Notes under the pieces: generated by a model
What the model saw: only the letters and a program-made list of their open reading frames with translations
Databases searched by the model: none
Told to the model about the DNA's origin: nothing
Shown here: piece by piece, positions 3,166-62,700 of the stretch
Position numbering within the stretch: position 1 is the first letter of the stretch
Layout: each line of letters opens with the position of its first letter
Source of the DNA: Mobula hypostoma
Taxonomy: Eukaryota
Length of the DNA stretch: 64,000 nt
Direction of reading: 5' to 3'
Assembly (NCBI RefSeq): GCF_963921235.1
Contig: NC_086097.1
Span: 148,802,001 to 148,866,000, forward strand
Position numbers and translations under genes: made by a program

Positions 3166-3414
3166 CCTATGTTTTGAATAAAACAAAAAAAATTGATGAA
3201 AATACTCAGCAGGTAAAGCAGCATCTGTGGAGAAGGAAACAGTTAATATTTTCAATTTCTGATGAACTTTCATCAGAACTGAACAGTTCATTAGTTCATC
3301 ATGCACCAATAAATCAAGTATTTTATTGAAAAGCAATTGACCAGATAAATAATTATACTTCTTCCAGCACAGATGCCTCCTGACCCACTGAGATTTCGAG
3401 TACTTTTGTTAATA

Positions 3415-5829: not shown

Positions 5830-7434
5830 CAGTCCCTATAAAAAGTATTCACCGCTGCACCCCCCCCCCCGGAAGTTTTCATGTTTTATTGTTTGACAAC
5901 ATTGAATCACAGTGATATTAATTTGGCTTTTTTTTTTACATCCATCAGCAGAAAAAGACTTTTTTATCACAGTGAAAACAGATCTCTACAAAGTGATCTA
6001 AATTAATTACAAATATAAAACACAGAATAATTGACTGAATAAGTATTCACCCCCCCCCCCTTAACATGACACACCAAATTATCACTAATGCAGCCAATGG
6101 GTTTTAGACTCATAATGAGTTAAATAGAGATGTGTTTTTTGCACACCCCTGTGCAGTCAAGGTATTTCAATTGTAGTAAAAATACACTTGTATCCACCTT
6201 TGTCACTATCCTGGCAAAAACAACACCATGAAGACAAATGAACACTCTATGCAACTCCAGAAAAAGGATATTGAAAAGCACAAGTCAGGAGATGGATACA
6301 AGAAAATTTCCAAGTCACTGAATATCCCTAGGAGTACAGTTAAGTCAATCATCAAGAAATGGAAAGAATATAGCACAGTTGAAAATCTGCCTAAAGCGAG
6401 CGATCCTCAGAAACCGAGAAACCGCGTAAAAAGGGGACTGTTGAGGGAGGCCACCAAGAGACCTATGACAACTCTGGAGGAGTTGCAAGCTTCAGCAGCT
6501 GAGATGGGAGAGACTGTGCATACAACAACTGTTGTCCAGGTACTTTACTGGTCACAGTTTTATGGGAGAGTGAAAAAGAAAAAAGCCACTGTTGAAAAAA
6601 ATCTCACATGAAATCTCAGCTAGAGTTTGCCAAAAGCATGTGGGAGACTCTGAAGTCAGCTGGAAGAAGGTTCGATGGTCTGATGAAACCAAAACTGAGC
6701 TTTTTGGCCATCAGACTAAACACAATGTTTGGCGTAAACCAAATACCGCACATCATCAAAAACGCCGTGAAGCATGGTGGCGGCTGCATCATGCTGTGGG
6801 GATGCTTCACTGCAGCAGGCCCTGGAAGGCTTGAGAAGGTAGAGGGTAAATGAATGCAGCAAAGTTTAGGGAAATCCTGGAGGAAAACCTGATGCAGTCT
6901 GCAGGAGAACTGCGACTTGGGAGAAGATTTGTTTTCCAGCAAGACAATGACCCCAAATGTAAAGCCAAAGCTACAAAGGAATGGCTTAAAAACAACAAAG
7001 TTAATGTCCTGGAGTGGCCAAGTCAGAGTCCAGATCTCAATCCAACTGAGAATTTGTGGCTGGATTTGAAAAAGGCTACTCACTCACGATCCCCATGCAA
7101 ACTGATGGAGCTTGAGCAGTTTTGTAAAGAAGAATGGGGGAAAAATCGCAGTGTTCAGATGTGCAAAGCTAATGGTGACATATCCACACATACTCAAAGT
7201 TGTAATTGCTGCCAAAGGTGCATCTACTAAATACTTTCTTGAAGGGGGTCAATTATTTTGTGTTTTATATTTGTAATTAATTTAGATCACTTTTTGGAGA
7301 TCTATTTTGACTTTGACACAAGAGTTTTTTTCTGTTGATCAGTGTCAAAAAAAGACAAATTAAATCCACTCAATGTTGTAAAACAGTAAAACATTGAAAC
7401 TTCCAAGGGGGCTGAATACTTTTTATAGGCACTG
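5830..7434 (+). mobile_element. Full-length (1605 bp) Tc1 transposon of IR/DR type with frameshifted DD34E transposase
   Basis: TA on both flanks; long inverted repeats; transposase split over ORFs 6228-6611, 6592-6834, 6608-6853, 6850-7230 with [24 protein letters not shown]. Confidence 0.95.
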
Positions 7435-15199: not shown

Positions 15200-15825
15200 T
15201 AAGCATTTTTGATACTCAAGCACAGTTTAGACATATCTACCCACTCGGGTCCTCTTAAAAACTCTTTCCTTAAAGCTATACCCTCATTTTTGATATCCCT
15301 ACCGTTTTGATTATCTACTCTATCTAAGAATCTCAGAAACTTATATCCTTCTATCAGGTCACTCCAGAGAAAACAAGCCAGCCTATCCAATTTTTCCCCA
15401 TCACTAATTTAAGCAACATCTTGGTAAATTTCTTCTGCATTCTACTTATTGCAATCACATTCTTCCTGCACTGTGGTGGAAAGAACTGCTCATAATACTC
15501 AACACAAGAGGTACTACAGATGTTGGAAATCTAGAGCAATACACACAATGTGCTGGAGGAGCTCAGTAGATCAGGCAGCATCTGTGGATGGGAATAAACA
15601 GTCAACATTTATTCCCATCCATAGCTGTTGCCTGACCTGCTGAGCTCCACCAGCACATTGTGTGCATTGCTCATAATACTGCAAGTGCAGCCTAAATCAG
15701 TGTTTTGCAAAGCTGCAACATAATGTTTCACTTCTTATATTTCTTTTTCTCAACAAATGAAGGCAAGCATATTGTATGCCTTTTCTCACGACCCTATCAT
15801 GGACGTGTACTCCTAGGTTTCTCTG
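15200..15825 (-). mobile_element. Degenerate CR1 fragment interrupted by a fold-back insertion
   Basis: Minus-strand SDLIEGYKFLRFLDRVD and related motifs. Confidence 0.65.
15500..15672 (-). mobile_element. Older Penelope-terminus-derived fold-back element
   Basis: ~65-bp imperfect inverted repeat (15534-15598 vs 15608-15672), flanked by direct repeat ataatact. Confidence 0.65.
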
Positions 15826-16220: not shown

Positions 16221-18984
16221 CTCTGTCCATCAGCATTCCTTATTGCACTAGCATTTTACTGTACTACTCTTTCAGATTTCCAGGAATGCATCATCTATAT
16301 TGTGCAATTGTACATTTTGAATTATCACTATTTCTAGAAAAAATGTGGGTAAAGCCAATTGTATGTTGGCATTATTTCACAGGAAATAAGGATACAACAG
16401 TAAGTAAATCTAGCAGCAATTGCAGGTGGCTTTAATGAAACTAGTGTTAAAATGCTTTGCACAGGTTTAGTTTCCAGACTCCAGGAAAGACTGCCAAGAA
16501 ACTAGACTGTGCAGTATCATGTTTTTGTGTGGTACATGATTCATTTTCAATGAAAAATAATACATGCACTGTGAGATGACTATTTTCCTTTCAGATCTTT
16601 CTTGCTTCTTTGTGAGTCACGACACCTCTTCTTGGAACTCCCTAGATAAAGGTATGGTTCTTTGAATGACAGGAATCAGTAATGCCAAAGCGAGCCTTTA
16701 CTGAGCTTGTGAATCTGCTTCATCATTTCTTAAAGAATACATGCAGACTAGAAGTGAAATCCCATCTCACCCCTTTAAGTAATGTACTTACTCAGCTCCC
16801 TCAACTGAGAGTTCCACTACACCCCAAGTTCTAACCTTCACCCAAACTCCCCCACCATTATACAAACAACAATGCCTACCCTTCAACTGTTTGACATCTC
16901 CACTCCTATATCCCCTGATCTGCCATTATCCACCCAACAAACAAACTGCTGACCGATTGCAGTGTCCACTCCCACTAGCAATTTGACTTTACCATCATTG
17001 CAGGTTTGTCTTTGGATTATCTTGAGCCATACATCTGTAGTAGATATTGAGCATGTATTTTTTTTTAAAAGTTCCTTGTGCCATGTAGCAATGATTTTGA
17101 TATATTTTCATATCACTACAGATGATAGTTGAGTACTGCTCACTTTCAATGAAGGATGTTTAATTAGAGACTTTGCCCAGGTTACTTGCTTTATTGAAGA
17201 GCACCGTAGAAGAATCTACAGACGAATGGCACCCAGCCCAATGTTCCTGGCAGCCGATGGGGTATTAGGGAAGTAAGTACAGAAGACTGCGGATGCTGGA
17301 ATCTAAAACAAAAATCAAGTTGAGGGAGGAGCTCAGTGAGTCAAGCAGCATTTGTGGGGGCAAAAAGAATTTTTGCCATTTTGGTTCGAGATGCTGCTTG
17401 AAGACTAGACTGTTGAGGTAACAAAACTGGTATAAACAGGAGGGGTTGGGTGGGATGATACAGGGGTTGGTAGATGATAGGTGAACCAGGGAGGGGTGAG
17501 GTACCATGGACCGATGAAGCAGGAATGGGAAATGTATATGCCTGTACAACTATCTAGAACTAAACATACACATTCAGTTTGCCAACATAAAGAAAAAATA
17601 TTATTCCCTTCCTCTTACAATCTGCAATGGTGAACTTTCCTCTGTGATCCCATGTAGCCCACTGTCACTTTCTTGTGCTTTTGTGACTTCAGCTGTCTGT
17701 GAATCTATCTGTCGGTCTCATTCCTTTTCTCTGCTAAGTTAATTACCATGCATTTCTCCATTGGGTACTAGTAGATCATTTCTATCATACTGTGGGTCTA
17801 TCTCACAGTTTGCTGCTATATCACTGTGTTTTACTTTCTGTATGTTTCTCTATCTATCCCTCCCACAATCGTTTATCTCTACCTCCCTGTATTTTAGTCT
17901 CATTCTCTCATTCCAGCTCTCTTTTCCTGTACTCCAGTTTTTACTAACTTCTCTCGGTCTTCTTCTGTTTCGTCCCATTTCTCTTTCTTGCTAATTTTTT
18001 TTGTCATTTAGTTTAACTGTCTAATACACTATCGGCATCTTTTATCTTTCATCAGCAATCCCTATCAAAGATGCTTAACTTCAGCTTGTTCTATGTTGCT
18101 GCATTCCTCACAAGCAACTTCTAGTGTGATCTACTACATTGAAGATCAGAGTGGAACATTGTTGCCCCCTAGAGCTCCAACACACAAGCTGCATTAAATA
18201 AAAAAACAGCCTTGATAATAACAGCTTACAACTATTTTCCAATAGCAGCAGAATGTTTCATTAATACTGTTGTAGGCAACATGGATAGCCACAGTATAAT
18301 CTTTCACTGCCACCTACTGGCAAAATAGAGACCATATGTTTTAGGTAATAATCTCCATTGATAGCACTTGGAGCTTCCATGTAATTTTTGGGAGGCAAGG
18401 TGCATTTATTTATAATATAAACTGTTTTCTTGTGCTTTCTACCCATGTATAAAAACTTTGTGCAAATATGATTTCAAAACTAACTAATAGAACCTAAAGG
18501 ATACTTCGTTGATGAAATATTTTTGTAAATGAATATAGAATTCACAGGAAAATACATAAATATGTTAGTGACTACTTAAATCCATTTTGCCACTCGGAAA
18601 ATGATGTTGAACAGTGAGTCATTTCTAGGATAATCACAGAGCACAGTGGAATAGTGAGCAGAAATTCAAAACAAAAACAAAATCAATCAGTACATTGAAG
18701 GTGGAAATTCAGAGAGAATAATTTACAGAGGTATGGAAAATAAAAGCTGGACAGAGGACTAGCAGGAATGCAGTACCAATTCCTCGCACAGACTTGACAG
18801 AATAAATGGTCTGTGATATGACCATTCATCATGCTATTCTCTCTCTAGGAGCAAAAAATTATTGACCATTGGCTGAAGAGCATAACAGCCAAGATCTCAG
18901 ATGACCGCCCATAAATTCCGGGCAATAGACAAAATAAACTGGCAGTGGAGAGGAATGTTCCTCAATTACTCATGTATACGGATC

Positions 18985-26280: not shown

Positions 26281-29018
26281 GTGAGTAGATTTGTTCTTCG
26301 GAGGACTCGCCGAGTGATAACACGCGGTGTTTAATGTTGCCTCCTGGTACACTGAGAAACTAGGTGCCGGACTCCCGCCCTATGCCTGAACCGAATCCCC
26401 ATAACGGAACATCAGTACTTACTGAAGTCGGCACGCTGGCACTGTTTTACCTGTCTGGCACGTACGCACTCCCGCAGGTTGTCCAGTCACCCTGACTTTA
26501 TCCCTTCCTTTCTCTGATATTTGCTCCGTGACTGATGGCTGTGCACGTTTCGTTCTTTTCATTCATCATGACATTGATACATCGCCAAGTGAAAGTGTAA
26601 AAGACTGGTGTTGCTGATCTCAAAGATATATGAACACTGAGTCGCAAAATATTAGGACTAAAGAATAGGGGGAATGAGTGAAATGATTGAGACCATGGAG
26701 GGATTTGGAAGAGGGTAAGAGGTTTAAAAATTGAGTTATGGTTTTAGTGTTTTCAGGTTTCAAAAAATCTTGAAGTGATAAGGATTTATTTAAAATGATT
26801 GCAACAACTTAAAGCTGTGGACTTTTGACCATTATTGGGGGGAGAAGGAAAGACAGGAATGGGCCATAAATGCTGGTCTTGCAATTATGGGAAATGAATT
26901 AAAAACAAAATGATAGTAGTTTCTTGAGAGCAGTGTAAATTCATGAAATGGTAAGCTAATGGGGCAATGCAAGTTAGATGTTCCAAAGTCTTCAGGACAG
27001 TTCAAAGCTATAGCTGTAAATGAATACACAGGGATAGAAAAATATATCAATAATTCTATCAATAATTTTCTTTAAGGGAATAGCATAGATAATTTTTCTT
27101 TTAAAGAGAAACCATTTAAGAAGTCATGCATTAGTGAAATGAAGAGCTTGCATACAGTTTTGAGGTCTGGTCAAGATGATGTATTGAATGAAAATTTGCT
27201 AATGATGCAGATATTAATAAGAAAAAGCAACCAAGGTTGATGCTGATATTTTGTTTCATAAATCAGTGAAATGGGATACAGGAATGAATGCAGATGGATT
27301 TTTGAGATTGAATGGATGACATGCAGTTGGTTAAGGTCTTCTGTTATGGGATATCTAAGTCTGCATAAAATCTTAAGGATTATAACTGAACTCCAAAACA
27401 ACAAAAACTGAGCAGAAAAAGGCTTAAAGAAGCCAATCAAAATACTATTCTGAACAAATGAGGTTAGCTTGAAACATACTGAGAGCTTCACCATTGCAGA
27501 AGGTTGAGCGTAATCAAAAATTGGATTGAATTGCAAATTAGTTTGCGTGTCACAGAATTGTTGATGTTTTGTTGTGAAGCAAATGGATAAGACAGATACT
27601 GGTTCGTCAGAGGTAAAATTACGACTGAAAGCTCAAAACTGCAATCTTGTTACAATATAGAACAATGATGTCCTGGTGAAATATGTGGATAGGTTAGTGC
27701 AAGAAACCTGGGAGATAATACAAAATGATACAAGATACAACATGTTATTTTTCAAAAAATCATCCTAAAAATCAACTCAGATGTCAATGGAAGAGTGTTA
27801 AAACCAAGTGTTGTAATAGTATGGAATGCTGTGTTTCTTGCAGGAATTGATTCAGAATGAAATGATGGAATAAACATAACCATTCAGTTTAGATTTATAA
27901 AAGATTGCTTCTTGACTGCAAAGCAAGAAGAGTATAAGAGTCTGAAAATTGTTATTTATGCATTCAGCATAAATTGATGGTCATAATATTGGGGTAACAA
28001 ATACGAAACTTTATTTTCCAATAATAGACAAAATCATTATCAGAAGAATATATTAGCACTAAGAGTTGATAGAGTGAAAGAAAATGTCAAAAAATAGGAA
28101 ATTTGTTCAGCTGCGTTTCAGTAGAAAACAACATTTTAAATTTTGTAGAACTCCTAACGCGGAGCTCTCCAAGTGCACAAGTTCAGAGAAATGTTTTATG
28201 TGAATTAACAACTAATTTGAATGTGCAGATTAATTGTTGCCTTTGGTATATTAGATTACCTCAATGTTTTGGGGTGAAGACTCAATCATGCCATTCAGTC
28301 TAACACTTAAGTGGTATAGAGAAAAATTAAGTTTTCAATATCTGATGTCCATACATTAAAACATGACTATGTGTTCAGTATTTTGCTGGCTCAATTTAAA
28401 AGTTTCCATGGCTAAATTTCAGTGTAATGGTGCTGGTGTGCTTCCTAACTGTTTTACAACTAACATTGCTGAATAGATTATTTGATCAGCATTTGACTGC
28501 TGTATATGCTGACTGTGAATTTTTGCTATTTTATGAAAACGTGTCAGAGATATGAAATTGCATATTTAGTATCTTTGGCTATCTGATCAGGAAAAATCCA
28601 AAAGAATGCAGTAGTCAGAATGTTGTTTGTAACGATTTGTACAGTAATGATATGATCATGTTATAATTTCAACATTTGGAAGTACGTTTTTAATTGAAGC
28701 TTGGAAACTTTGTAGCTGGTACTGTTTGTGGGTCAAGAAGGTTAAAGGTATATAGGATCCATGATAAGTTAGCCAATTGAGTCCAAAACTGGCTTGGTGA
28801 AAGAAGGGAAAGGATAGCAATGGATGAATGTTTGGAATGTAAGTGTAATTAGTGGCACCCTGCTGGGATCTTTGTTATTTGTGAAATGCATTAATGTTTA
28901 AAATCTAGGTATATGATTTAATAAGTTTGAATAACACAAAACTGGATGCTGGAGATAACAAGGAAGGTTATTTAAGGCTACACCAGGATGTAGATAAAAT
29001 GGACAGTTAGGTGGTGCA

Positions 29019-29595
29019 ACACACATAAAAGTTGCTGGTGAACACAGCAGGCCAGGCAGCATCTCTAGGAAGAAGTACAGTCGACGTTTCGGGCCGAGAC
29101 CTTTCGTCAGGACTAACTGAAAGAAGAGCTAGTAAGAGATTTAAAAGTGGGAGGGGGAGATCCGAAATGATAGGTGAAGACGGGGGTGTGGGGGGGATGG
29201 AGCCAAGAGCTGGACAGTTGATTGGCAAAAGGGATATGAGAGGATCATGGGACAGGAGGCCCAGGGAGAAAGAAAAGGGGGAGGGGGAGCCCAGAGGATG
29301 GGCAAGGGGCATAGTGAGAGGGATAGAGGGAGAAAAAGGAGAGAAAAAGAATGTGTGTATATAAATAAATAACGGATGGGGTACGAGGGGGAGGCGGGGC
29401 ATTAGCAGAAGTTTGAGAAGTCAATGTTCATGCCATCAGGTTGGAGGCTACCCAGAAGGAATATAAGGTGTTGTTCCTCCAACTTGAGTGTGGCTTCATC
29501 TTTACAGTAGAGGAGGCCGTAGATAGACATGTCAGAATGGGATGTGGAATTAAAATGTGTGGCCACTGGGAGATCCTGCTTTCTCTGGTGTACAG
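29019..29595 (-). mobile_element. 5'-truncated Penelope-like element (endonuclease C-terminus plus terminal repeat)
   Basis: Minus strand encodes QDLPVATHFNSTSH..EEQHLIFLLGSLQPDGMNIDFSNF; 14-bp direct repeat agttaggtggtgca at 29005-29018 and 29596-29609. Confidence 0.85.
29079..29114 (-). ncRNA. Minimal type I hammerhead ribozyme motif
   Basis: Minus strand AGTC-CTGACGA-A-AGGTCTCGGCCC-GAAA-CGTC-GACT; one mismatch at the base of stem II. Confidence 0.65.
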
Positions 29596-29986
29596 AGTTA
29601 GGTGGTGCATTAGCAGATTAGTAATGGAAAAATCCTGCAGCCAGCATATGTTGGTGGGGGGCGGGGGGGGGAGGAGATGGTGTGAGGGGAATGGATAGTC
29701 AACATTTTAGGTGGGGTCTTGACCAAAATGTTAACTGTCCATTTTTCCCCCACTAAGCTGCTTAACATGCTTTATTCCTCTGGTATCTTGTCTGTTGCCC
29801 CAGACTGCAGCATCTTCAATCTCTTACTCCAGAAAGAGCCAAGGTACTGTTGTGACTGTGATTAAGCCAGTGAAGATTGAAGCTGATAGATGAAAAAGGA
29901 TAACAAGCAGGCATTCTGGAGGGAACCTTGTATATTGTCTTCTGGGAGAAACATAGTAAAATCTCCCTGAATTGAACTTTAATGTA

Positions 29987-33130: not shown

Positions 33131-33263
33131 GCTTGAAAGGTGCAATGTCAAAAAATAAGAATAAAGATAAAGCACTCAATAAAACAGACAATGAGGAAGA
33201 GAAAAGTAAAACTCTTAAAAACATTCCACCACTGCTCAACAATGCTGAGAAAGAATTGAGCAG
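33131..33263 (+). CDS. Exon 3: (G)LKGAMSKNKNKDKALNKTDNEEEKSKTLKNIPPLLNNAEKELS(R)
   Basis: Acceptor aaacag, donor AG|gtaata; phase 1 to 2; open frame. Confidence 0.85.
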
Positions 33264-37792: not shown

Positions 37793-38894
37793 GTAATGCT
37801 AAACAAAGTTTGGGGAAGGCTATCTGGCCTTCAAATCTATTCCAGTCAGTGACCATAGATTTTTTTTTTTGAAGAATTTATTTTCTTCACTCCCATCCCT
37901 TAATCTCTTTATTTGGGGATTAATCACCTGAGATGGCTCTCTCTGATGTCCACAAGGGGAAGAAAGGACTAGTTTATTAATATGTGAGTCCCAATGTCCC
38001 TTATTATTGATATAAATTCAGCTGTCAAGAGTGCCAGTTTTAATTAACTCTTAGCCCATTTCCAACATGTACCATATGACAAACCTCTTGGAGATGTCTC
38101 CAGCTTCGGACACATTCATATCCCTAAAAGCAGTTGCTGTTCTGGAGGAGAGATATGTTTTTGTGTATTTTATGGCAGGAAAGCAAACCTTATCCAAATT
38201 AAGCAATATAAATGTTTGAGTCTTTTTATCACTTTTATATGCTGCACTTTCATTACATGATGGCCTGTACAGATATTGGGAATCAGGCTTGAGCTGAAAT
38301 GTAAAGCAAAATGAATGTAGATTGAGCAAACCCTGCTTTGATGGTTGCCCATGGCTTTGAGTGAAAGTTTCACCATTTTAAATCCTGCCAGTAGTTCAGG
38401 TTGTTGGTATAAGCAGACCACTTGAATACTATGATTTTAATAAACATGGAAAATATTGGTCAATAAAGACAACCCTTGTATTACATTGACTTTATTCCCA
38501 GGTTAAAGTGAACATTTTTCTGTTTTCTTGATATGGGACTCAAGACTTGTGAAAACTATGAAGTGATTGCCCTAGTCAAGTGTTAAGGGGAAAATGTTGA
38601 TAAATGCAAAAGTGAAACAGATTTTCTAGTAAATTAAGCTGGTAAGTAAATAATACCAAGTTCTACTCTTAGTTTCCACCATGCATATGCAAGACACGAC
38701 AGATGCTGGAATCTGAAATAACACGTAGAATGGAACAGCTCAGCAAGCTAGCAGCATCTATGGAGGGAAATGGACAGCTGACATTCTGGTTCAAGACCCT
38801 TTATTTGGACAAAAACACCAACTGCCCATTTCCTTCCATAGGTGGTGCCTGACATGCAGAGGTTCTCCAGCGCTAGCACCTGATAAACTACATC

Positions 38895-43539: not shown

Positions 43540-45455
43540 TGAGTACCCTGCCGAGCTGGGTTGTTATCTTGCAGAGGTTTTGTTACCCAGCTAAGTAACA
43601 TAATCAGTGCAACTTCGAATGAAATGTTGGGGATCTACATTGTTTGTCTTTTATGTGTCCTGAAGTGGGATGTAAGCTGGTACTACATCCACACTACGCC
43701 GGATAATTTTGAAAACGAAGCTTTTTCTCTTCGTTTTGATCCTCTGTCCACACTAAAACGGCATTTTGATCCCCCGAAAACGGAGATTTTCAGAAACAGT
43801 CTCCAGAGTGAATAAATCTGAAAACGCTTAATATCCGTTGCAGTGTGTACGGGGTAACCGGAGCTTTCTAAAACAGCTGTCATGACGTGGCGGAACAGAT
43901 GGCGGCAGCTGGGCATTCCATTGTTTTCTTGCTATTATTATTATTATTACTACTACTTTATTGTCGCCAAACAATTGATACTGGAGCGTACAATCATCAC
44001 AGCGATATTTGATTCTATGCTTCGCAGAACCTAACAATTTCAGCACAGACGGCAACAAGACTGAAGCCAGAAGAGTTAGAAATGTACTCACCAAATACTT
44101 TGACCCATAGCTTACTGAATAAATAAGTATACTCACTTTGCCATGTTTTCTGTCCGTACTTGTATGAAGGTAAGGACAGAAAACAGCCTCCGCCACTTCC
44201 AGTTTAAATTCCATGCGGAATATTTTGGAGGATCAAGAACCAAGAACCAAGGTGGTTTACCTATTTATGCAAGTACTTCTTTGACAATAGATGTGTAACA
44301 GCCTAGTGTAACATTGTATGGAAATACAAGATAACACTGATGCAGTCATGTTTTATACATTTAACAAGGTGCTTTATTAATGCAACAGAGTTGGTCAGTT
44401 TTTCAATGTTCGTTGTCAGCCGGGTCATACTGTCCGTGAACTCCCTGTCGGTTGCCTCCATACACTCCAGTATTTGTTTGTTTGTTTTTTTTTAGTTTTA
44501 AGTCCTCCTGCGCGACAGTCAGGATCAATTCCTTTTAAGTTTTTCTACTCTGTAACTGGACAAACGCGCACCAAGTATACCGTTTCCTCTTTGCTTGTTT
44601 TCTGTGTGTCCTGTGCATGCCCAGTAGGAGGAGATTCGCCCAAATATCCATCTAATGTGGACAGAGATATTTTGAAAAACGCCTAGTGTGGACGCCTGTT
44701 GTTTTTACTCGAAATCGGCGTTTTCCAAATTATCCGCGTAGTGTGGACGTAGCCTGGGTTCATTTCGACATGCTTATTGATAGAATTCTGCTTGAAGAAC
44801 AAAGCTTCTAAGAATTCTCAGCTTGTTGTTGACGGGCTTGGCCTTGGATAGTGACATTGGTCCAGTCGACTTGATGTGCTTCGCTGTCACAATGTATAGA
44901 TATAAGGGAAAGTTGATCATGACAGTTTACAGCCAGTTGGTGTTCATGATAGCTTGTTGATAGCTTCCTACCAGTCTGTCCAATATAATACTTGTCACAG
45001 TTGGCGCATAGAATTTTGTATATGGTGTTCGTTCTGTGTGTTGTAGGTGGGGGGGTCTTTTATTCTTGATAAACATTGGTGTAGTATGGCTGTAGGTTTG
45101 TGTGCTACTGTGATGTCAAATGGTCGTAGAAATCTATTGGTCATTTCTGATACATTCTTGATGTAGAGTAGGGTGACCAGTTTAGTTGGCCATTGTGTGC
45201 TTCTTTGATTTTGTTGGTTGGACAAACAGCACCAAACAAAATTCCTTGAGTATCCATTGTTCTTGAAAACTTTGTAGAGATGTTCTTCTTCACTCTTCCG
45301 TCGTAATGCTGTGCTGCAATGTGTAGTGCCCCATTTGAATAATGTCCTGACACAGCTTTGCTTGTGGACGCCTGGGTAGTTGCCATGGAAATTGAGTATT
45401 TGATCTGTGAGTTGCCTTTCAGTAGACACTTGTTTGAAATTCGCCGTTGGCTTGA
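43540..45455 (-). mobile_element. Penelope-like element 3' part (RT thumb plus GIY-YIG endonuclease)
   Basis: ORF 44995-45465 (TDQILNF..HKQSCVRTLF..NGYSRNFV); IYKILCANCDKLYIGQTGRKL; SINKHVEMNPAYIP spanning the MITE site. Confidence 0.9.
43681..44754. mobile_element. PIF/Harbinger-type non-autonomous element inserted in Penelope
   Basis: ~35-bp imperfect TIRs ctac(a/g)tccacactacgc(c)ggataattt(t/g)gaaaacg; 3-bp TSD TGG at 43678-43680 and 44755-44757. Confidence 0.85.
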
Positions 45456-46722: not shown

Positions 46723-46775
46723 GGAAAAATTGTTTCCAATAAACCACAAGACCAGAAAGAAAATGGTTTTAACAG
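46723..46775 (+). CDS. Exon 7: GKIVSNKPQDQKENGFN(S)
   Basis: Acceptor tttttgcag, donor AG|gtatgt; phase 0 to 2. Confidence 0.85.
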
Positions 46776-50953: not shown

Positions 50954-51055
50954 TAAACCTGACAATGAATTGGAGGCAAGCAGAGTTCATAAGGATGTAA
51001 CTGAAAAGCTAACAAGCAAACCAACTCTAGAGACAGAAGATCAGCATTTGGAGGA
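50954..51055 (+). CDS. Exon 8: (S)KPDNELEASRVHKDVTEKLTSKPTLETEDQHLE(E)
   Basis: Acceptor tttttgaacag, donor gtaagt; phase 2 to 2. Confidence 0.85.
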
Positions 51056-53126: not shown

Positions 53127-53234
53127 GCTTAATTTGAATGTGCAGTCAGAGCTGCAGAACTCTGAGGACAATGCCGGAATTCAAGAAAGCAAACTAAAAA
53201 AAGAACCTGACCATGCTGACGATCCTTCCACAAA
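53127..53234 (+). CDS. Exon 9: (E)LNLNVQSELQNSEDNAGIQESKLKKEPDHADDPST(K)
   Basis: Acceptor ttttcataaag, donor gtgagt; phase 2 to 2. Confidence 0.8.
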
Positions 53235-55780: not shown

Positions 55781-56051
55781 TATGTTGCAACTTCACAAAA
55801 CAATGGTTAGGCCACATTTGGAATATGGTTGTGCTGGAGAGTGCAGGGGAGACTGACCAGGATGTTGCCTGAATTAGAGCACTTAAATTATAGGAAATAG
55901 TGGACAGATGGTTCATTTTCAATGGAGTGAAGGAGACTGAGGGATAAAATGAAATGGGTATATAAATTGAGATGCATTTAATACAGTAGCTAGTCAGAAT
56001 TCTTTTTTCATGGTAGGGATATCAAAAATAAAGGCATAGGTTTAAGATAAA

Positions 56052-56530
56052 GGATGGAGTTAAGAGCTGGAAAGTTGATTGGCAAAAGGGATATGAGGCT
56101 GGAGAAGGGAGAGGATCATGGGACAGGAGGCCTAGGGAGAAAGAAAGGGGGAGGGGGGAATCCCAGAGGATGGGCAAGGAGTATAGTGAGAGGGACAGAG
56201 GGAGAGAGAGAGAGAAAAATATATATGATAAATAACGGATGGGGTACGAAGGGGAGGTGGGTCATTAACGGAAGATAGAGAAGGCAATGTTCATGCCATC
56301 AGGTTAGAGGCTACCCAGATGGAATATAAGGTGTTGTTCAGCTCCATCCCTCCCCCTCCTGTCTTCTCCTATCATTTCGGATCTCCCCTCCCCCTCCCAC
56401 TTTCAAATCTCTTACTATCTCTTCTTTCAGTTAGTCCTGATGAAGGGTCTCTGCCTGAAATGTCGACTGTACCTCTTCCTATAGATGCTGCCTGGCCTGC
56501 TGCGTTCCACCAGCATTTTGTGTGTGTTGC
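56052..56530. mobile_element. Penelope terminus with inversion (minus 56052-56340, plus 56341-56530)
   Basis: First part matches ~29195-29475 directly; second part matches the reverse complement of ~29019-29200. Confidence 0.8.
56433..56468 (+). ncRNA. Minimal type I hammerhead ribozyme motif (CpG-decayed stem III)
   Basis: AGTC-CTGATGA-A-GGGTCTCTGCCT-GAAA-TGTC-GACT. Confidence 0.6.
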
Positions 56531-56640
56531 CGGAAAAAGAAAGTAACTTTTTCACTTATTCTTAGAGCCTTTTTTAAAGAATGGGACACTATTAGCTACC
56601 CTCCAGCATCTCGCCTACAGCTGAGGACATATTAAATATC

Positions 56641-56821
56641 AACATACATCAAAGTTGCTGGTGAACGCAGCAGGCCAAGCAGCATCTAAGTCCTGATGAA
56701 GGGTCTCTGCCTGAAACGTCGACTGCGCCTCTTCCTATAGATGCTGCTTGGCCTGCTGCGTTCACCAGCAACTTTGATGTATGTTGCTTGAATTTCCAGC
56801 ATCTGCAGAATTCCTGTTGTT
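56641..56821 (+). mobile_element. 181-bp Penelope-derived fold-back element
   Basis: Perfect 48-bp inverted repeat 56641-56688 / 56738-56785; perfect 15-bp TSD gacatattaaatatc at 56626-56640 and 56822-56836. Confidence 0.92.
56689..56724 (+). ncRNA. Minimal type I hammerhead ribozyme motif with intact core
   Basis: AGTC-CTGATGA-A-GGGT(CTCT)GCCT-GAAA-CGTC-GACT; predicted cleavage after GUC at 56720. Confidence 0.75.
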
Positions 56822-57284
56822 GACATATTAAATATCCCTGTTAGGGCTCCTATAAGGTCCAAGGGAACACCTTGTCGGGCCTTGGCGATTTATCCACCCT
56901 AAGTTGGCTCAAGTCAGCAAGTATGGCCTTCTCTTTAATTCATATACAGTCCATGACCTCACTGCTGTGTTGCCTCACTTCTATAGATTTCTTGTCCATC
57001 TTCCAAGTAAATATGGATGCAAACAATTCTGTTTAAGTTCTCTCCATCCCTTTCAACTCTGTGCGTCGTCCAGAGATAAAGCAAACAGGGGAACAGGTTT
57101 AGAAAAAGCAAAATGGCTTAGCCTTCATCTTGATGGTCAGAGAAAGCTTAAACAGCCAAATAGCATTCTCCTTTTTTTTTCAAAACTGTGCTTTGGTGAA
57201 TTCTAGAAAGATGAGAACAGAAAAAAAATTAACATGATTGTCCTAACAATTTAGAAATCTTATTTTCATTTATGCATTATGTAG

Positions 57285-57371
57285 GCTGGTTGAGAATCAA
57301 GATATGAAAGAAGACTCATTTCCTGTTGAAAGTACTAAGAAAAGGATCCACTGTGATATCAATTCTGAGCA
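57285..57371 (+). CDS. Exon 10: (K)LVENQDMKEDSFPVESTKKRIHCDINSE; last exon I can place
   Basis: Acceptor ttatgtag, donor gtaagt; phase 2 to 2. Confidence 0.85.
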
Positions 57372-59761: not shown

Positions 59762-62700
59762 GGTGATGGACCTTAAACGTTCACAGTGTGAAGAGTACTG
59801 GGCGTTGTGTCAGCGCGCTTCGGTACTTGAACACTGTGAACGCCGACGTGACCTTCCTCCAGGAATGCGGCCTGCCGCACCTCAGGAGTGGTTCCAGGGT
59901 TTGTCGGTGTGGTCGGGGGGCAACAATTGTCACGCTTCCGGCCTGGGGATTCTGCTGCAGGGAGGCAACTTCTCAATCACCCAAGTTAAAGAGGTGGTTG
60001 CAGGGCGCCTCCTGGTAGCAGATGTCAAATACCGGGGCACTCCACTCCGGCTGATCAACGTGTGTGCCTCCTCCCTGCGGAGCAAGTGGCTGGCCGTCTT
60101 CGAGCAACTCCCACAGCTGCTGGTGATGTCCCAGCCGGTCGTTCTGGCCAGAGACTTCAACTGCACCATTGATGCGGCTGGAGGATCCAGCAGTGCCGAC
60201 GGTAGGCTAGACAGTACCTCTAGACTCCTGAGGGAAACGGTGAAGACAGCCAGGCTCCCCCTGTGGCACCCCCACAGGTGGAGCACAGCCACAAGCCACC
60301 TGGACACGATCGGACGGCTCAGCCCGCTCCTGGATTGACTTCCTCTTCCTGTCAGAGTCCCTCACGGTCAGGTCCACCGACGTCAAGCCGGTGTTCTTCT
60401 CTGACCATTGCCTTCTGAGAGCCACCTGTCTCTTACGGGAGGACCAGAAGGCAGGCAGGGGGACGTGGAAGCTGAATGTTAAGCTGCTGACCCCAAAGAA
60501 CATCGAGGAATTAGAGAGGGAGTACACAGGTTGGAGAACCTTGAAAGCCTTCTTTGATTCCCTGGTTCACTGGTGGGGAGCCACCAACGAGAACATTAAA
60601 AGGTTCTTCATCCGCAAGGGTATCCAGAAAGCAAGGCAGGAGCAGAAGGAACTGCGTAAACTCCAGACAGAGTTGCAGCAACTCCTCCTTCTGCAGTCGA
60701 AGGGGGTGGATGTCAGGGAGGAATTGCGAGAGGTGAAGGGCCGGCAAGCCCAGCACCTCGCCACCGAATCCTCCAAGATCATCTTCCGATCAAGGGTCCG
60801 AACCGTGGAGCAGGACGAGACGTGATCACGCTTCTTCTTCCAAAAAGGTGCACGGGGGAGTTCTGTGATCCACAACCTTAAGGAAGAGGATGGCTCAGTC
60901 GTGTCCTCGCAGACCGACATACTGTGGATCTGTAAGTCCTTCTATGCCAGACTGTACGACGAAAAGGCCACAGAATCCACAGCCTCCCGCAACTTCCTTC
61001 GTTTATCATGCAGGTCTTGGACGACAGCAAGCGGGAGAGTCTGGATCAGCCACTGACCCTGGACGAGTTGACAGGCTCCATCCGTTCCTTTGGGTCGGGT
61101 AGGACTCCCAGAAGCGACAGCTTACCGGCTGAGTTGTACTCGGCTCTGTGGAACTGGATGGGCCCAGACCTGCTGGAAGTGTACAGCGCTATGCTTCTAG
61201 CTGACTGTATGTCAGAGTCCATGAGGAAGGGCATCATCACCCTCATCTACAAGCAAAAGGGGGAGAGGGAGGACATTAGAAATTGGAGGCCCGTATCACT
61301 CCTGAACGTGGATTACAAGATCCTGTCCAAGGCTATCGCCAACAGGGTCAGATCTGCTCTGGGACAGGTGATCCACCCGGATCAAACCTGTGCTGTACCG
61401 GGCGGAAGATCTTAGACAGCCTCGCGCTGCTGAGGGACACCATCGCCTACGTGCAGGACAGGGGGGTCATTACCTGCCTAGTCAGCTTGGACCAGGAGAA
61501 GACCTTCGACCGGATATCGCACACGTACATGGCGGACGTGCTCTCCAAAATGGGATTTGGGGAGGGGATCCGGAATTGGATTAGACTGCTCTACATAGAC
61601 ATCTGTAGTGCAGTCCAGGTCAACAGGTGGGAAACAGACAGCTTCCCCATCAGGTCTGGGGTTAGGCAGGGCTGTCCCCTCTCCCCTGTCTTGTTTGTCT
61701 GCTGTATAGAGCCCTTTGCCGAAGCCATCGGGAGGGATAAGAGCATAAGAGGGGTGACGCTGCCAGGCAGTGGAGGGACCCAAGTAAAAACCTCCCTGTA
61801 CATGGACAACATCACCGTCTTCTGCTCTGATCCGAGGTCAGTTGGCAGGTTGATTGGCATCTGCGAACAGTTCGAGCTAGCGTCGGGGGCCAGGGTCAAC
61901 CGCATGAAGAGCGAAGCCATGCTCTTCGGCAACTGGCCCGACCGATCCAGTGTCCCCTTCACCATCAGGTCTGACCACGTGAAGGTGTTGGGGATCTGGT
62001 TTGGAGGGGCTGAGACGTGCAACAAGAACTGGCAGGAGTGGACTGCCAAGGTGAAACAGAAACTGGGACTGTGGGGAGGGCGCTCCCTGTCGATAACGGG
62101 CAAGAACCTGGTCATCAGGTGTGAGGTGCTCTCAGGGCTGCTGTACTTGGCGCAGGTGTGGCCCGTCCCCCGTTCCTGCAGCTGGGAAATCACCCGAGCT
62201 GTCTTCAGATTTGTCTGGGGATCCAAGATGGAGCGGGTGAGACGGACCGTCATGCACAAGTCCCTGGACAGCGGGGACAAGAACGTCCCCAATGTCGCCC
62301 TCACCCTGATGGCCAGCTTCGTGTGTGGCTGCATCAGGCTGTGCGTGGATCCCAGATACGTGGGCACAAAGTACTACTATGTGCCCAGGTTCTACCTGTC
62401 GCCCTGGCTACGAAGGATGGGTCTGGCCCCTTTCCCGCACAACACCCCTGTTAGCTGGTCGTTGCCTCCTTACCTGTCCTTCGTAGAAAAATTCTTCAAG
62501 GCCAACGCCTTTGACCACAGGGCCATTAGACAGTGGTCGGCACGTACTATCCTGCAGGCACTGCAGGAGAAAGACGTGATGGACACAGTGGGATGGTTCC
62601 CTGAGCAGACCGTCCAGTTCATCTGGCAGAATGCCTCATCGCCAGATCTCACCAACAGGCACAAAGACCTTGCCTAGCTGGCGGTGAGAGGGGCCCTCCC

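What the first reader, a model, noticed from the sequence alone, without database searches (positions are those of the whole stretch)
56626..56836. 181-bp fold-back insertion with a hammerhead ribozyme in the loop of a perfect 48-bp stem
Seen: perfect 15-bp TSD, perfect 48-bp inverted repeat, and a 49-nt loop holding an intact minimal type I hammerhead (stem I AGUC/GACU, CUGAUGA, extra A, 4-bp stem II, GAAA, palindromic ACGU stem III, GUC site at 56718-56720). Established: Penelope-like elements carry minimal hammerheads in their terminal repeats and often insert with an inverted partial repeat. Inference: a very recent insertion, either a truncation product or a non-autonomous ribozyme-bearing mini-element. 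It lies sense in intron 9 of the host gene.
Basis: partly seen in the sequence, partly recalled or inferred. Interest (0 to 1): 0.7.

Follow-up and report, generated by a model that had tools for sequence, protein, structure and literature searches.

The report
Short two-armed Penelope retroelement insertion
The hairpin-shaped insert with a small hammerhead ribozyme motif is real, but it is the shortest form of an insertion pattern already described for Penelope-like jumping genes, and its ribozyme is predicted to be folded shut.

Summary
Observation confirmed: a 15-bp duplication, perfect 48-bp arms, and a 49-nt loop holding a minimal hammerhead motif. The core is complete, but stem II closes with G·U instead of the conserved G-C.

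The 181 bp are two 5'-truncated ends of a very abundant Penelope-like element (PLE), probably Neptune-type, joined head to head. One arm stops at the tail-less 3' end and the other carries the 36-nt tail. This is the published PLE 'inverted copy plus one-sided tail' layout. The duplication interrupts a decayed CR1 coding motif, so it is a true target-site duplication.

Three other head-to-head pairs in the window have different junctions, which argues against a propagating mini-element. No genome was held for a full count. Most likely both target nicks primed reverse transcription, at the element's two start sites.

The ribozyme lacks stem III as a monomer, its core is predicted to be mispaired, and dimer folds are unfavourable. 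The cDNA ran through the cut site, so the template was uncut or re-ligated. The insertion is probably young; this rests mainly on a subfamily marker enriched in one organism. Earlier scan notes report the same pattern elsewhere in this genome and in others.

The parts
56626..56640 (.). Left target-site duplication (15 bp)
   Evidence: on the minus strand it encodes IFNM of a decayed CR1 RT motif that continues across the insertion
56641..56688 (-). Inverted arm: 48-nt 5'-truncated PLE terminal-repeat end stopping at the tail-less 3' end (...GTATGTT); 1-nt overlap with the TSD
56689..56785 (+). Direct arm: 5'-truncated PLE terminal-repeat end, starting at the first base of hammerhead stem I; blunt junction with the inverted arm, no microhomology
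   Evidence: 87 of 99 identical to the 29-kb copy, which is attached to a PLE ORF end
56689..56724 (+). Minimal type I hammerhead motif; core complete, G10.1·U11.1, no monomeric stem III; predicted cut 56720|56721
   Evidence: architecture as in PMC4209133
56738..56785 (+). 3' arm of the 48-bp hairpin (the part of the direct arm that the inverted arm duplicates)
56786..56821 (+). 36-nt PLE 'tail', present on one arm only
   Evidence: 30-40 bp tail described
56822..56836 (.). Right target-site duplication (15 bp)
56531..56625 (-). Target DNA, left part: decayed CR1-type LINE RT remnant (SSAVGEMLEGS..., WRVANSVPFFKKG in another frame)
   Evidence: matches window CR1 copy 48426-48380
56837..57010 (-). 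Target DNA, right part: same CR1 remnant (LRVDKSPRPDK..., GALTG)
   Evidence: matches window CR1 copy 48306-48145
56052..56530 (+). Older neighbouring copy of the same PLE family with an L1-type 5' inversion (56052-56346 minus, 56341-56530 plus), a second hammerhead motif 56433-56468 and a tail-less 3' end
29005..29609 (-). Reference copy: 5'-truncated PLE with the ORF C-terminus, hammerhead-like motif, tail-less end and 14-bp TSD
15487..15680 (.). Older two-armed insertion of the same layout (one tailed arm, one tail-less arm, 13-bp TSD) with a different junction

Best explanation
A dead-on-arrival insertion of an abundant endonuclease-bearing Penelope-like retrotransposon, probably Neptune clade, in a cartilaginous-fish (ray-like) genome. 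SHOWN: it consists of two 5'-truncated copies of the element's 3' terminal repeat set head to head, one ending at the tail-less end and one 36 nt further at the tail end, inside a 15-bp duplication of a CR1 remnant. INFERRED (about 0.6 within this explanation): the GIY-YIG endonuclease nicked both strands 15 bp apart. Each 3'-OH primed reverse transcription on element RNA, one at each of the two internal start sites. The two short cDNAs (48 and 133 nt) were then joined blunt, head to head. The perfect hairpin is a by-product of copying the same 48 nt twice from one RNA or two near-identical RNAs. The hammerhead is a passenger from the terminal repeat. The cDNA ran through its cut site, so the template was uncut or re-ligated. 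In a host transcript it is predicted to sit in an inactive fold; cleavage was not tested.
For: (1) Family: the same terminal sequence, 88% identical, lies about 290 nt behind an ORF end at 29.4-29.6 kb. That ORF end has 137 phmmer hits at E<=0.001. Of the 7 hits I read, P0011, P0003 and P0097 carry a CX3-4CxxC linker before a YIGET (GIY-YIG) motif; P0011 and P0097 also carry RT motifs. Pfam support is weak: GIY-YIG below cut-off in 4 of 10 hits scanned, RVT_1 above cut-off in 1. All 8 hits looked up are named from skates and rays. The CX2-5CxxC linker marks Neptune/Nematis. (2) Layout: inverted terminal repeat + TSD + tail on one arm only is published (PMC3846280; Craig et al.). The tail equals the distance between two RT start sites, and both target strands are cut and extended in vitro (PMC11167929). 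(3) The TSD is real: the right flank reads GALTG-IFNM and the left flank IFNM-SSAVGEM, matching the uninterrupted EPLAM-IFAS-SMGMGEV in another window CR1 copy. (4) The tail-less end also ends copies with no partner arm (29 kb, 56.5 kb), and it overlaps the TSD by 1, 3 and 5 nt in 3 of 3 TSD-bounded insertions, as expected of a priming site. (5) Other head-to-head pairs have other junctions. (6) Folding: core mispaired GAUG:CGUC with P about 0.8, open-core fold P = 0.016. The homodimer double hammerhead is -9.1 kcal/mol, against -16.0 for two monomers and -19.4 for the best co-fold. (7) Published metazoan min-HHR monomers show no cleavage, and the Anolis PLE ribozyme needs protein and is dispensable for insertion in vitro.
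Against: No genome-wide junction count was possible, so a small same-breakpoint family is not excluded. The clade comes from a neighbouring copy's ORF end and one motif, not from an RT tree. The in vitro two-start-site data are for a Poseidon element whose start sites lie in an AC-rich loop; here the RNA is GU-rich at both sites. The direct arm starts exactly at the first base of stem I, which this model leaves as coincidence. Nearest-neighbour energies ignore hammerhead tertiary contacts, Mg2+ and protein help, so they understate active folds. The two junction contigs reach only 16 and 15 letters into the insert, short of the tool's 31-letter bridging rule, and X1 may be the assembly's own sample.
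Confidence: 0.86

Rival explanations
1. Same element, different route: a single cDNA started at the tail site, stopped at stem I, folded back and copied itself. The endonuclease then resolved the hairpin at the tail-less point. This is the self-priming / EN-resolution model. Its odds are counted inside the best explanation, as the alternative mechanism.
For: The arms are 100% identical, including A56781, which is a minority letter; one template explains this. Self-priming is proposed in PMC3846280 and EN-mediated resolution of the tail in Craig et al..
Against: There is no microhomology or palindrome at the junction to prime a fold-back. The tail-less end also occurs in copies without a fold-back partner and overlaps the TSD by 1-5 nt. 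In vitro, RT starts at both sites on RNA.
Confidence: 0.3
2. A propagating non-autonomous mini-element: the 181-nt fold-back unit is itself transcribed and re-inserted by the PLE enzyme.
For: It keeps the tail end used for priming and has perfect arms and TSD. Non-autonomous PLE derivatives exist (retrozymes; Chlamys derivatives).
Against: No second copy with this junction in 64 kb. The other head-to-head pairs start at model positions 1/40, 26/26 and 3/19, against 1/52 here. It is not a head-to-tail tandem, as retrozymes are. No promoter part of the terminal repeat upstream of the ribozyme is included.
Confidence: 0.05
3. A working ribozyme in the host pre-mRNA: this motif and the one 256 nt upstream (56433-56468) form a cis double hammerhead. 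The inverted arm first pairs with the upstream copy's end and brings the two motifs together during transcription.
For: Both motifs are on the + strand with complete cores. In the nascent RNA 56425-56724 the best fold does pair the inverted arm with the upstream copy, and the double-hammerhead fold is nested and geometrically allowed. Min-HHR dimers cleave weakly in vitro.
Against: That fold costs +16 to +18 kcal/mol while the RNA is nascent, and +38 to +39 once the perfect arm is made. Both motifs have G10.1·U11.1, and the upstream one has AUGU instead of ACGU. Transcription of this strand was not shown.
Confidence: 0.04
4. Assembly artefact: a fold-back chimera of a high-copy repeat.
For: The locus lies in nested repeats. 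No listed contig spans the central junction (32 of about 292,000 pieces shown).
Against: There is a clean 15-bp TSD inside a continuous CR1 motif. Read-derived contigs of run X1 cover 56506-56656 and 56807-56971 with 0 differences, at depth 3.1 and 4 against about 4.9 in unique flank. The layout recurs at 15.5 kb with its own TSD.
Confidence: 0.02

Closest known systems
Canonical EN+ Penelope-like element insertions with an adjacent inverted 5'-truncated pLTR, a one-sided 30-40 bp tail and a TSD (e.g. Pen2a_Av, Arkhipova et al. 2013, PMC3846280; Craig et al. 2021, PMC8557442 / bioRxiv 2021.04.23.441226; passages read)
   Same: Head-to-head inverted and direct terminal-repeat ends, tail on one arm only, short TSD, hammerhead in the terminal repeat.
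   Different: Both arms are truncated to under 140 nt, with no ORF. The TSD is 15 bp rather than 8-10. No palindrome or overlap at the inverted junction.
Minimal hammerheads (min-HHR) of metazoan PLEs (Cervera & De la Pena 2014, PMC4209133; parts 1-2 of 4 read)
   Same: Type I topology, 4-bp stem I, extra nucleotide between 9 and 10.1, palindromic 15.2-16.2 with no loop 3, dimer-dependent.
   Different: G10.1·U11.1 instead of G-C. Stem II is 4 bp, not the 7-8 bp described for Schistosoma motifs. The motif is enclosed in a 48-bp hairpin made by the insertion.
Poseidon element of Anolis (PAc) studied in vitro (Frangieh et al. 2024, PMC11167929; parts 1-2 of 4 read)
   Same: Two 3' ends a tail-length apart; both target strands usable as primers; AT-rich target (the TSD here is 12 of 15 A/T); ribozyme cleavage not needed for insertion.
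   Different: Probably a different clade (Neptune-type linker in relatives). RNA start sites are GU-rich here and AC-rich there. No in vitro data exist for this family.
Non-LTR retrozymes (Li et al. 2026, bioRxiv 10.64898/2026.07.22.740005; part 1 of 5 and passages read)
   Same: Non-coding, PLE-derived, carries a type I hammerhead.
   Different: Retrozymes are head-to-tail tandem units with a hammerhead in each unit. This is a single head-to-head insertion with one motif.

Membership tests
EN+ Penelope-like element (fragment of) | Terminal repeat linked to an ORF with RT and C-terminal GIY-YIG endonuclease | tested here: met
   Through the 88%-identical 29-kb copy, whose ORF end matches RT + GIY-YIG proteins; the finding itself has no ORF
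EN+ Penelope-like element (fragment of) | 5' truncation with an adjacent inverted truncated copy | tested here: met
EN+ Penelope-like element (fragment of) | 30-40 bp tail on one end only | tested here: met
   36 nt, 56786-56821, absent from the inverted arm
EN+ Penelope-like element (fragment of) | Short target-site duplication | tested here: met
   15 bp; flanks continue a CR1 motif; no orthologous empty site seen
Neptune clade | CX2-5CxxC motif between RT and GIY-YIG | tested here: met
   Seen in homologues P0011, P0003, P0097 (definition); shared with Nematis; the window copy is truncated before this motif
Neptune clade | RT phylogeny | not tested
   No RT of this family in the window; no tree built
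Minimal type I hammerhead | Core CUGANGA, GAA-A, UH; stems I and II | tested here: met
Minimal type I hammerhead | Extra nucleotide 9/10.1 and palindromic 15.2-16.2 | tested here: met
   A56700; ACGU 56716-56719
Minimal type I hammerhead | Conserved G10.1-C11.1 pair | tested here: not met
   G56701·U56712. U is a common family variant: at the homologous upstream site C makes up 43, 40, 58 and 77% of laid depth in the four runs
Minimal type I hammerhead | Self-cleavage (as a dimer or protein-assisted) | not testable with these tools
   Only folding energies, which are unfavourable
Rfam hammerhead families | Covariance-model match at gathering score | tested here: not met
Non-LTR retrozyme | Head-to-tail tandem units each with a hammerhead | tested here: not met
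   Single head-to-head insertion; the neighbour is a separate, older insertion
Propagating non-autonomous mini-element | Multiple dispersed copies with the same internal junction and own TSDs | tested here: inconclusive
   None in 64 kb; genome not held; contig listing too cut to count

The most novel reading that the evidence does not exclude
Two independent PLE insertions 256 nt apart have by accident built a co-transcriptional ribozyme switch in a host intron. The new insertion's inverted arm first pairs with the older copy and docks the two minimal hammerheads into a cis dimer that can cut the pre-mRNA, possibly with protein help. The arm then snaps into its perfect hairpin and locks the ribozyme off.
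Probability: 0.04. Interest if true: 0.55.

Novelty: new member of a known kind. Interest (0 to 1): 0.13.

Why it matters
As one locus it matters little: it is a tidy, probably young example of the published PLE insertion layout. Its modest value is as a data point. Each arm ends at one of the two predicted reverse-transcription start sites, the tail-less site overlaps the target by 1-5 nt, and the cDNA crosses the ribozyme cut site. In a genome with so many copies, a count of such two-armed insertions could test double priming against self-priming in vivo for a Neptune-type element. If polymorphic, it is a presence/absence marker. A 48-bp perfect hairpin in an intron could be an ADAR or Dicer substrate (established knowledge, not tested).

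Tried and rejected
Own-genome search: no genome held.

Rfam: no hammerhead match. The best E-value matches were miRNA-precursor models far below their gathering scores (38.2 vs 82 bits), reflecting only the hairpin; rejected.

Pattern scans for family motifs in metagenome, prokaryote genome and viral contigs: 0 matches each.

Empty site in other organisms: not among the 15 of 708 joints listed, and the flanks are themselves repeats; no conclusion.

Loose ends behind 56530 (895 contigs in X1, 1051 in X5) mix tail-bearing copies with diverse flanks, so I did not use them as proof of a tail-less end.

Idea that the hammerhead part was copied from the neighbour 256 bp upstream: the two share T56441/56697, T56452/56708 and T56456/56712, and a switch could fall near the cut site. 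It is not supported. None of 56697, 56708 or 56712 appears among the 40 listed differences, and all 12 T>C places in X1 are accounted for by other rows, which suggests a shared subfamily haplotype. This is indirect: 30 rows were hidden and tie handling is unclear.

Host gene identity: Pfam, ESM Atlas and PDB gave nothing usable.

Effect of G·U at 10.1-11.1: search found 4 papers. The passages read in two of them give no rate data, so the effect stays unquantified.

Prior description of this batoid family: search returned 1 unrelated paper; searches listed none on rays. Repbase and Dfam could not be searched, and no supplements were read. The alignment supplements of PMC4209133 and the tables of the 2026 retrozyme preprint may already include this motif.

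Full report
OBSERVATION. The coordinates are right. A 15-bp direct repeat (56626-56640, 56822-56836, 100%) encloses 181 bp. These begin with a 48-bp arm that is perfectly complementary to 56738-56785, with 49 nt between the arms. The fold is far beyond chance (z = -16, 0 of 200 shuffles). The loop begins with a 36-nt minimal type I hammerhead motif (56689-56724). My descriptor finds 3 such sites in the window and none in 200 shuffled windows. All core positions are present, but the pair closing stem II is G·U, where G10.1-C11.1 is described as highly conserved in such motifs (PMC4209133). Rfam does not recognise the motif.

WHAT THE PIECES ARE. The + strand part 56689-56821 matches other window loci. 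The most informative is 29005-29609 (minus strand), 87 of 99 identical over the shared end. About 290 nt upstream of its hammerhead-like motif, this copy carries an ORF end, SVHQRKQDLPVATHFN...GMNIDFSNFC*. That peptide hits 137 proteins. Among the 7 I read, three show a CX3-4CxxC linker before a GIY-YIG motif, two of them behind RT motifs. Pfam scores for GIY-YIG stay below cut-off. All 8 hits looked up are annotated from skates and rays. The linker marks the Neptune/Nematis clades (PMC8557442, passages). So the finding is the 3' terminal repeat of an endonuclease-bearing PLE, probably Neptune-type; the clade is inferred through a neighbour and one motif. The minus-strand arm is a second, shorter copy of the same end that stops at ...GTATGTT, while the plus arm continues 36 nt further. 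This is the PLE 'tail'. An inverted truncated copy, a TSD and a 30-40 bp tail on one arm only are the published layout (PMC3846280, passages; Craig et al., passages).

THE TARGET. Read on the minus strand, the right flank gives ...GALTG-IFNM and the left flank IFNM-SSAVGEMLEGS, followed in another frame by WRVANSVPFFKKG. Both flanks match one CR1 remnant at 48.1-48.4 kb, and another window CR1 copy has the uninterrupted EPLAM-IFAS-SMGMGEVPEDWRVADVIPLFK. The 15-mer therefore occurs once in the target motif and is a true duplication.

ABUNDANCE AND AGE. Contigs of 4 of the 23 listed public runs were laid on 56000-57200; 49,549 to 99,448 contigs per run were laid. In X1, summed depth over the element is 0.7-3.4 million against 5-9 in unique flank. 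The tool warns that this is not a copy number, but the family is clearly very abundant. Two X1 contigs cover 56506-56656 and 56807-56971 with no differences. They reach only 16 and 15 letters into the insert, below the tool's bridging rule, and X1 may be the assembly's own sample. At 56781 the family letter G makes up 78% of depth in X1 but 97.5-99.2% in X5, X15 and X16, so the finding's A marks a subfamily common in organism A only. At 56727 the finding's G holds about half of the depth in X1 and about 4% in X5. Against a simple reading, only 7% of X15 depth there is A, in a subfamily that differs at 56724 and 56729. Perfect arms and TSD alone bound divergence only to under about 4.6%. A young insertion is likely, not proven. 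No empty site appeared among the 15 of 708 joints shown.

ONE-OFF OR FAMILY. A profile built from nine window copies gave 16 hits at E<=1. Head-to-head pairs occur at 3.2, 15.6, 38.8 and 56.7 kb, with a weak fifth at 29.7 kb. Their arms start at model positions 1/40, 26/26, 3/19 and 1/52, so no junction repeats. The 15.5-kb pair has the same layout: one tailed arm, one tail-less arm and a 13-bp TSD. The 38.8-kb pair also has one tailed arm. A TSD was clear for 3 of the 8 loci searched. The layout thus recurs while the breakpoint does not, as expected of independent truncation products. A genome-wide count was not possible.

MECHANISM. Shown: the anatomy above. Inferred: nicks on both strands 15 bp apart, each primer extended on element RNA, one at the tail end and one at the tail-less end, then a blunt head-to-head join of the 133-nt and 48-nt cDNAs. 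Three points support this. The Anolis PLE protein cuts and extends both strands and starts at two sites that delimit the tail (PMC11167929, parts 1-2 of 4). The tail-less end also terminates copies with no partner arm (29 kb, 56.5 kb). It overlaps the TSD by 1, 3 and 5 nt in 3 of 3 TSD-bounded insertions. The rival is self-priming with endonuclease resolution; it explains the identical arms equally well but lacks junction microhomology. I put the odds at about 0.6 to 0.3. The cDNA passes through the GUC site to the first base of stem I, so the template was uncut or re-ligated, as in the in vitro system. That it stops exactly at stem I is unexplained and may be chance.

IS THE RIBOZYME LIVE. 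Stem III has no loop, so a monomer cannot fold into the active form, and published monomers of this type do not cleave. In the 211-nt RNA the core pairs with the cut site (GAUG:CGUC, P about 0.8) and the open-core fold has P = 0.016. A double hammerhead of two 36-mers scores -9.1 kcal/mol, against -16.0 for two monomers. A second motif lies 256 nt upstream on the same strand, and in nascent RNA the inverted arm does pair with that copy. The cis double hammerhead still costs +16 to +18 kcal/mol then, and +38 to +39 after the own arm is made. These models omit tertiary contacts and protein help, which the Anolis ribozyme needs, so activity is unlikely but not excluded. Candidate flanking exons on the + strand share phase 2; the gene was not identified.

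COMPARISON AND NOVELTY. It works like a truncated canonical EN+ PLE insertion and passes the membership tests for a fragment of one. It is a min-HHR with one conserved pair weakened. It is not a retrozyme. I found no paper on this batoid family (listings only for most hits; Repbase, Dfam and supplements not seen). Earlier unchecked scan notes reached the same reading for other loci of this genome and for two other genomes. I had stated my reading before opening them and do not count them as support.

VERDICT. Real, probably young, ordinary: new member of a known kind, interest 0.13.

Noticed in passing
window 56052-56530: Older copy of the same PLE family with an L1-style twin-priming inversion (outer end near where the direct part begins, about 6-nt overlap); no clear TSD. 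Its hammerhead core shares 28 identical nt with the finding.
   Followed up: partly
window 15487-15680: Older two-armed PLE insertion: 65-nt arms (58 of 65 identical), 13-bp TSD, tail on one arm, hammerhead core lost.
   Followed up: yes
window 38670-38872 and 3181-3406: Two more decayed head-to-head PLE-end pairs; the 3.2-kb one keeps a descriptor-positive hammerhead motif (3276, minus) and about 75 nt of other sequence between the arms.
   Followed up: partly
window 29005-29609: 5'-truncated PLE with an open 64-codon endonuclease C-terminus, 14-bp TSD and an A10.1-C11.1 mismatch in its hammerhead motif.
   Followed up: yes
window 44811-45059 (minus): Open frame with a YYIGQT motif after CxxC, which looks like a GIY-YIG fragment of a second PLE family (label from recall); Pfam gave no significant match.
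   Followed up: partly
window 59767-62236 (+): Largely open endonuclease/RT frames of a non-LTR retrotransposon in a GC-rich stretch (Tx1/L1-like by recall).
   Followed up: no
window 5930-7411: Tc1/mariner-like transposase remnants (by recall) between long inverted repeats.
   Followed up: no
P0009, P0030, P0034, P0002: Predicted proteins with host-gene domains (NMUR1, RECQL5, ATP synthase c and NYAP-type) contain this PLE's endonuclease C-terminus, i.e. exonised or mis-annotated PLE pieces; the three looked up by name are from skates and rays.
   Followed up: no
window 17155-57371 (+): Candidate host-gene exons (17155-17272, 33131-33263, 46723-46775, 50954-51055, 53151-53234, 57285-57371), several of phase 2-2 and low complexity; gene not identified.
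   Followed up: partly
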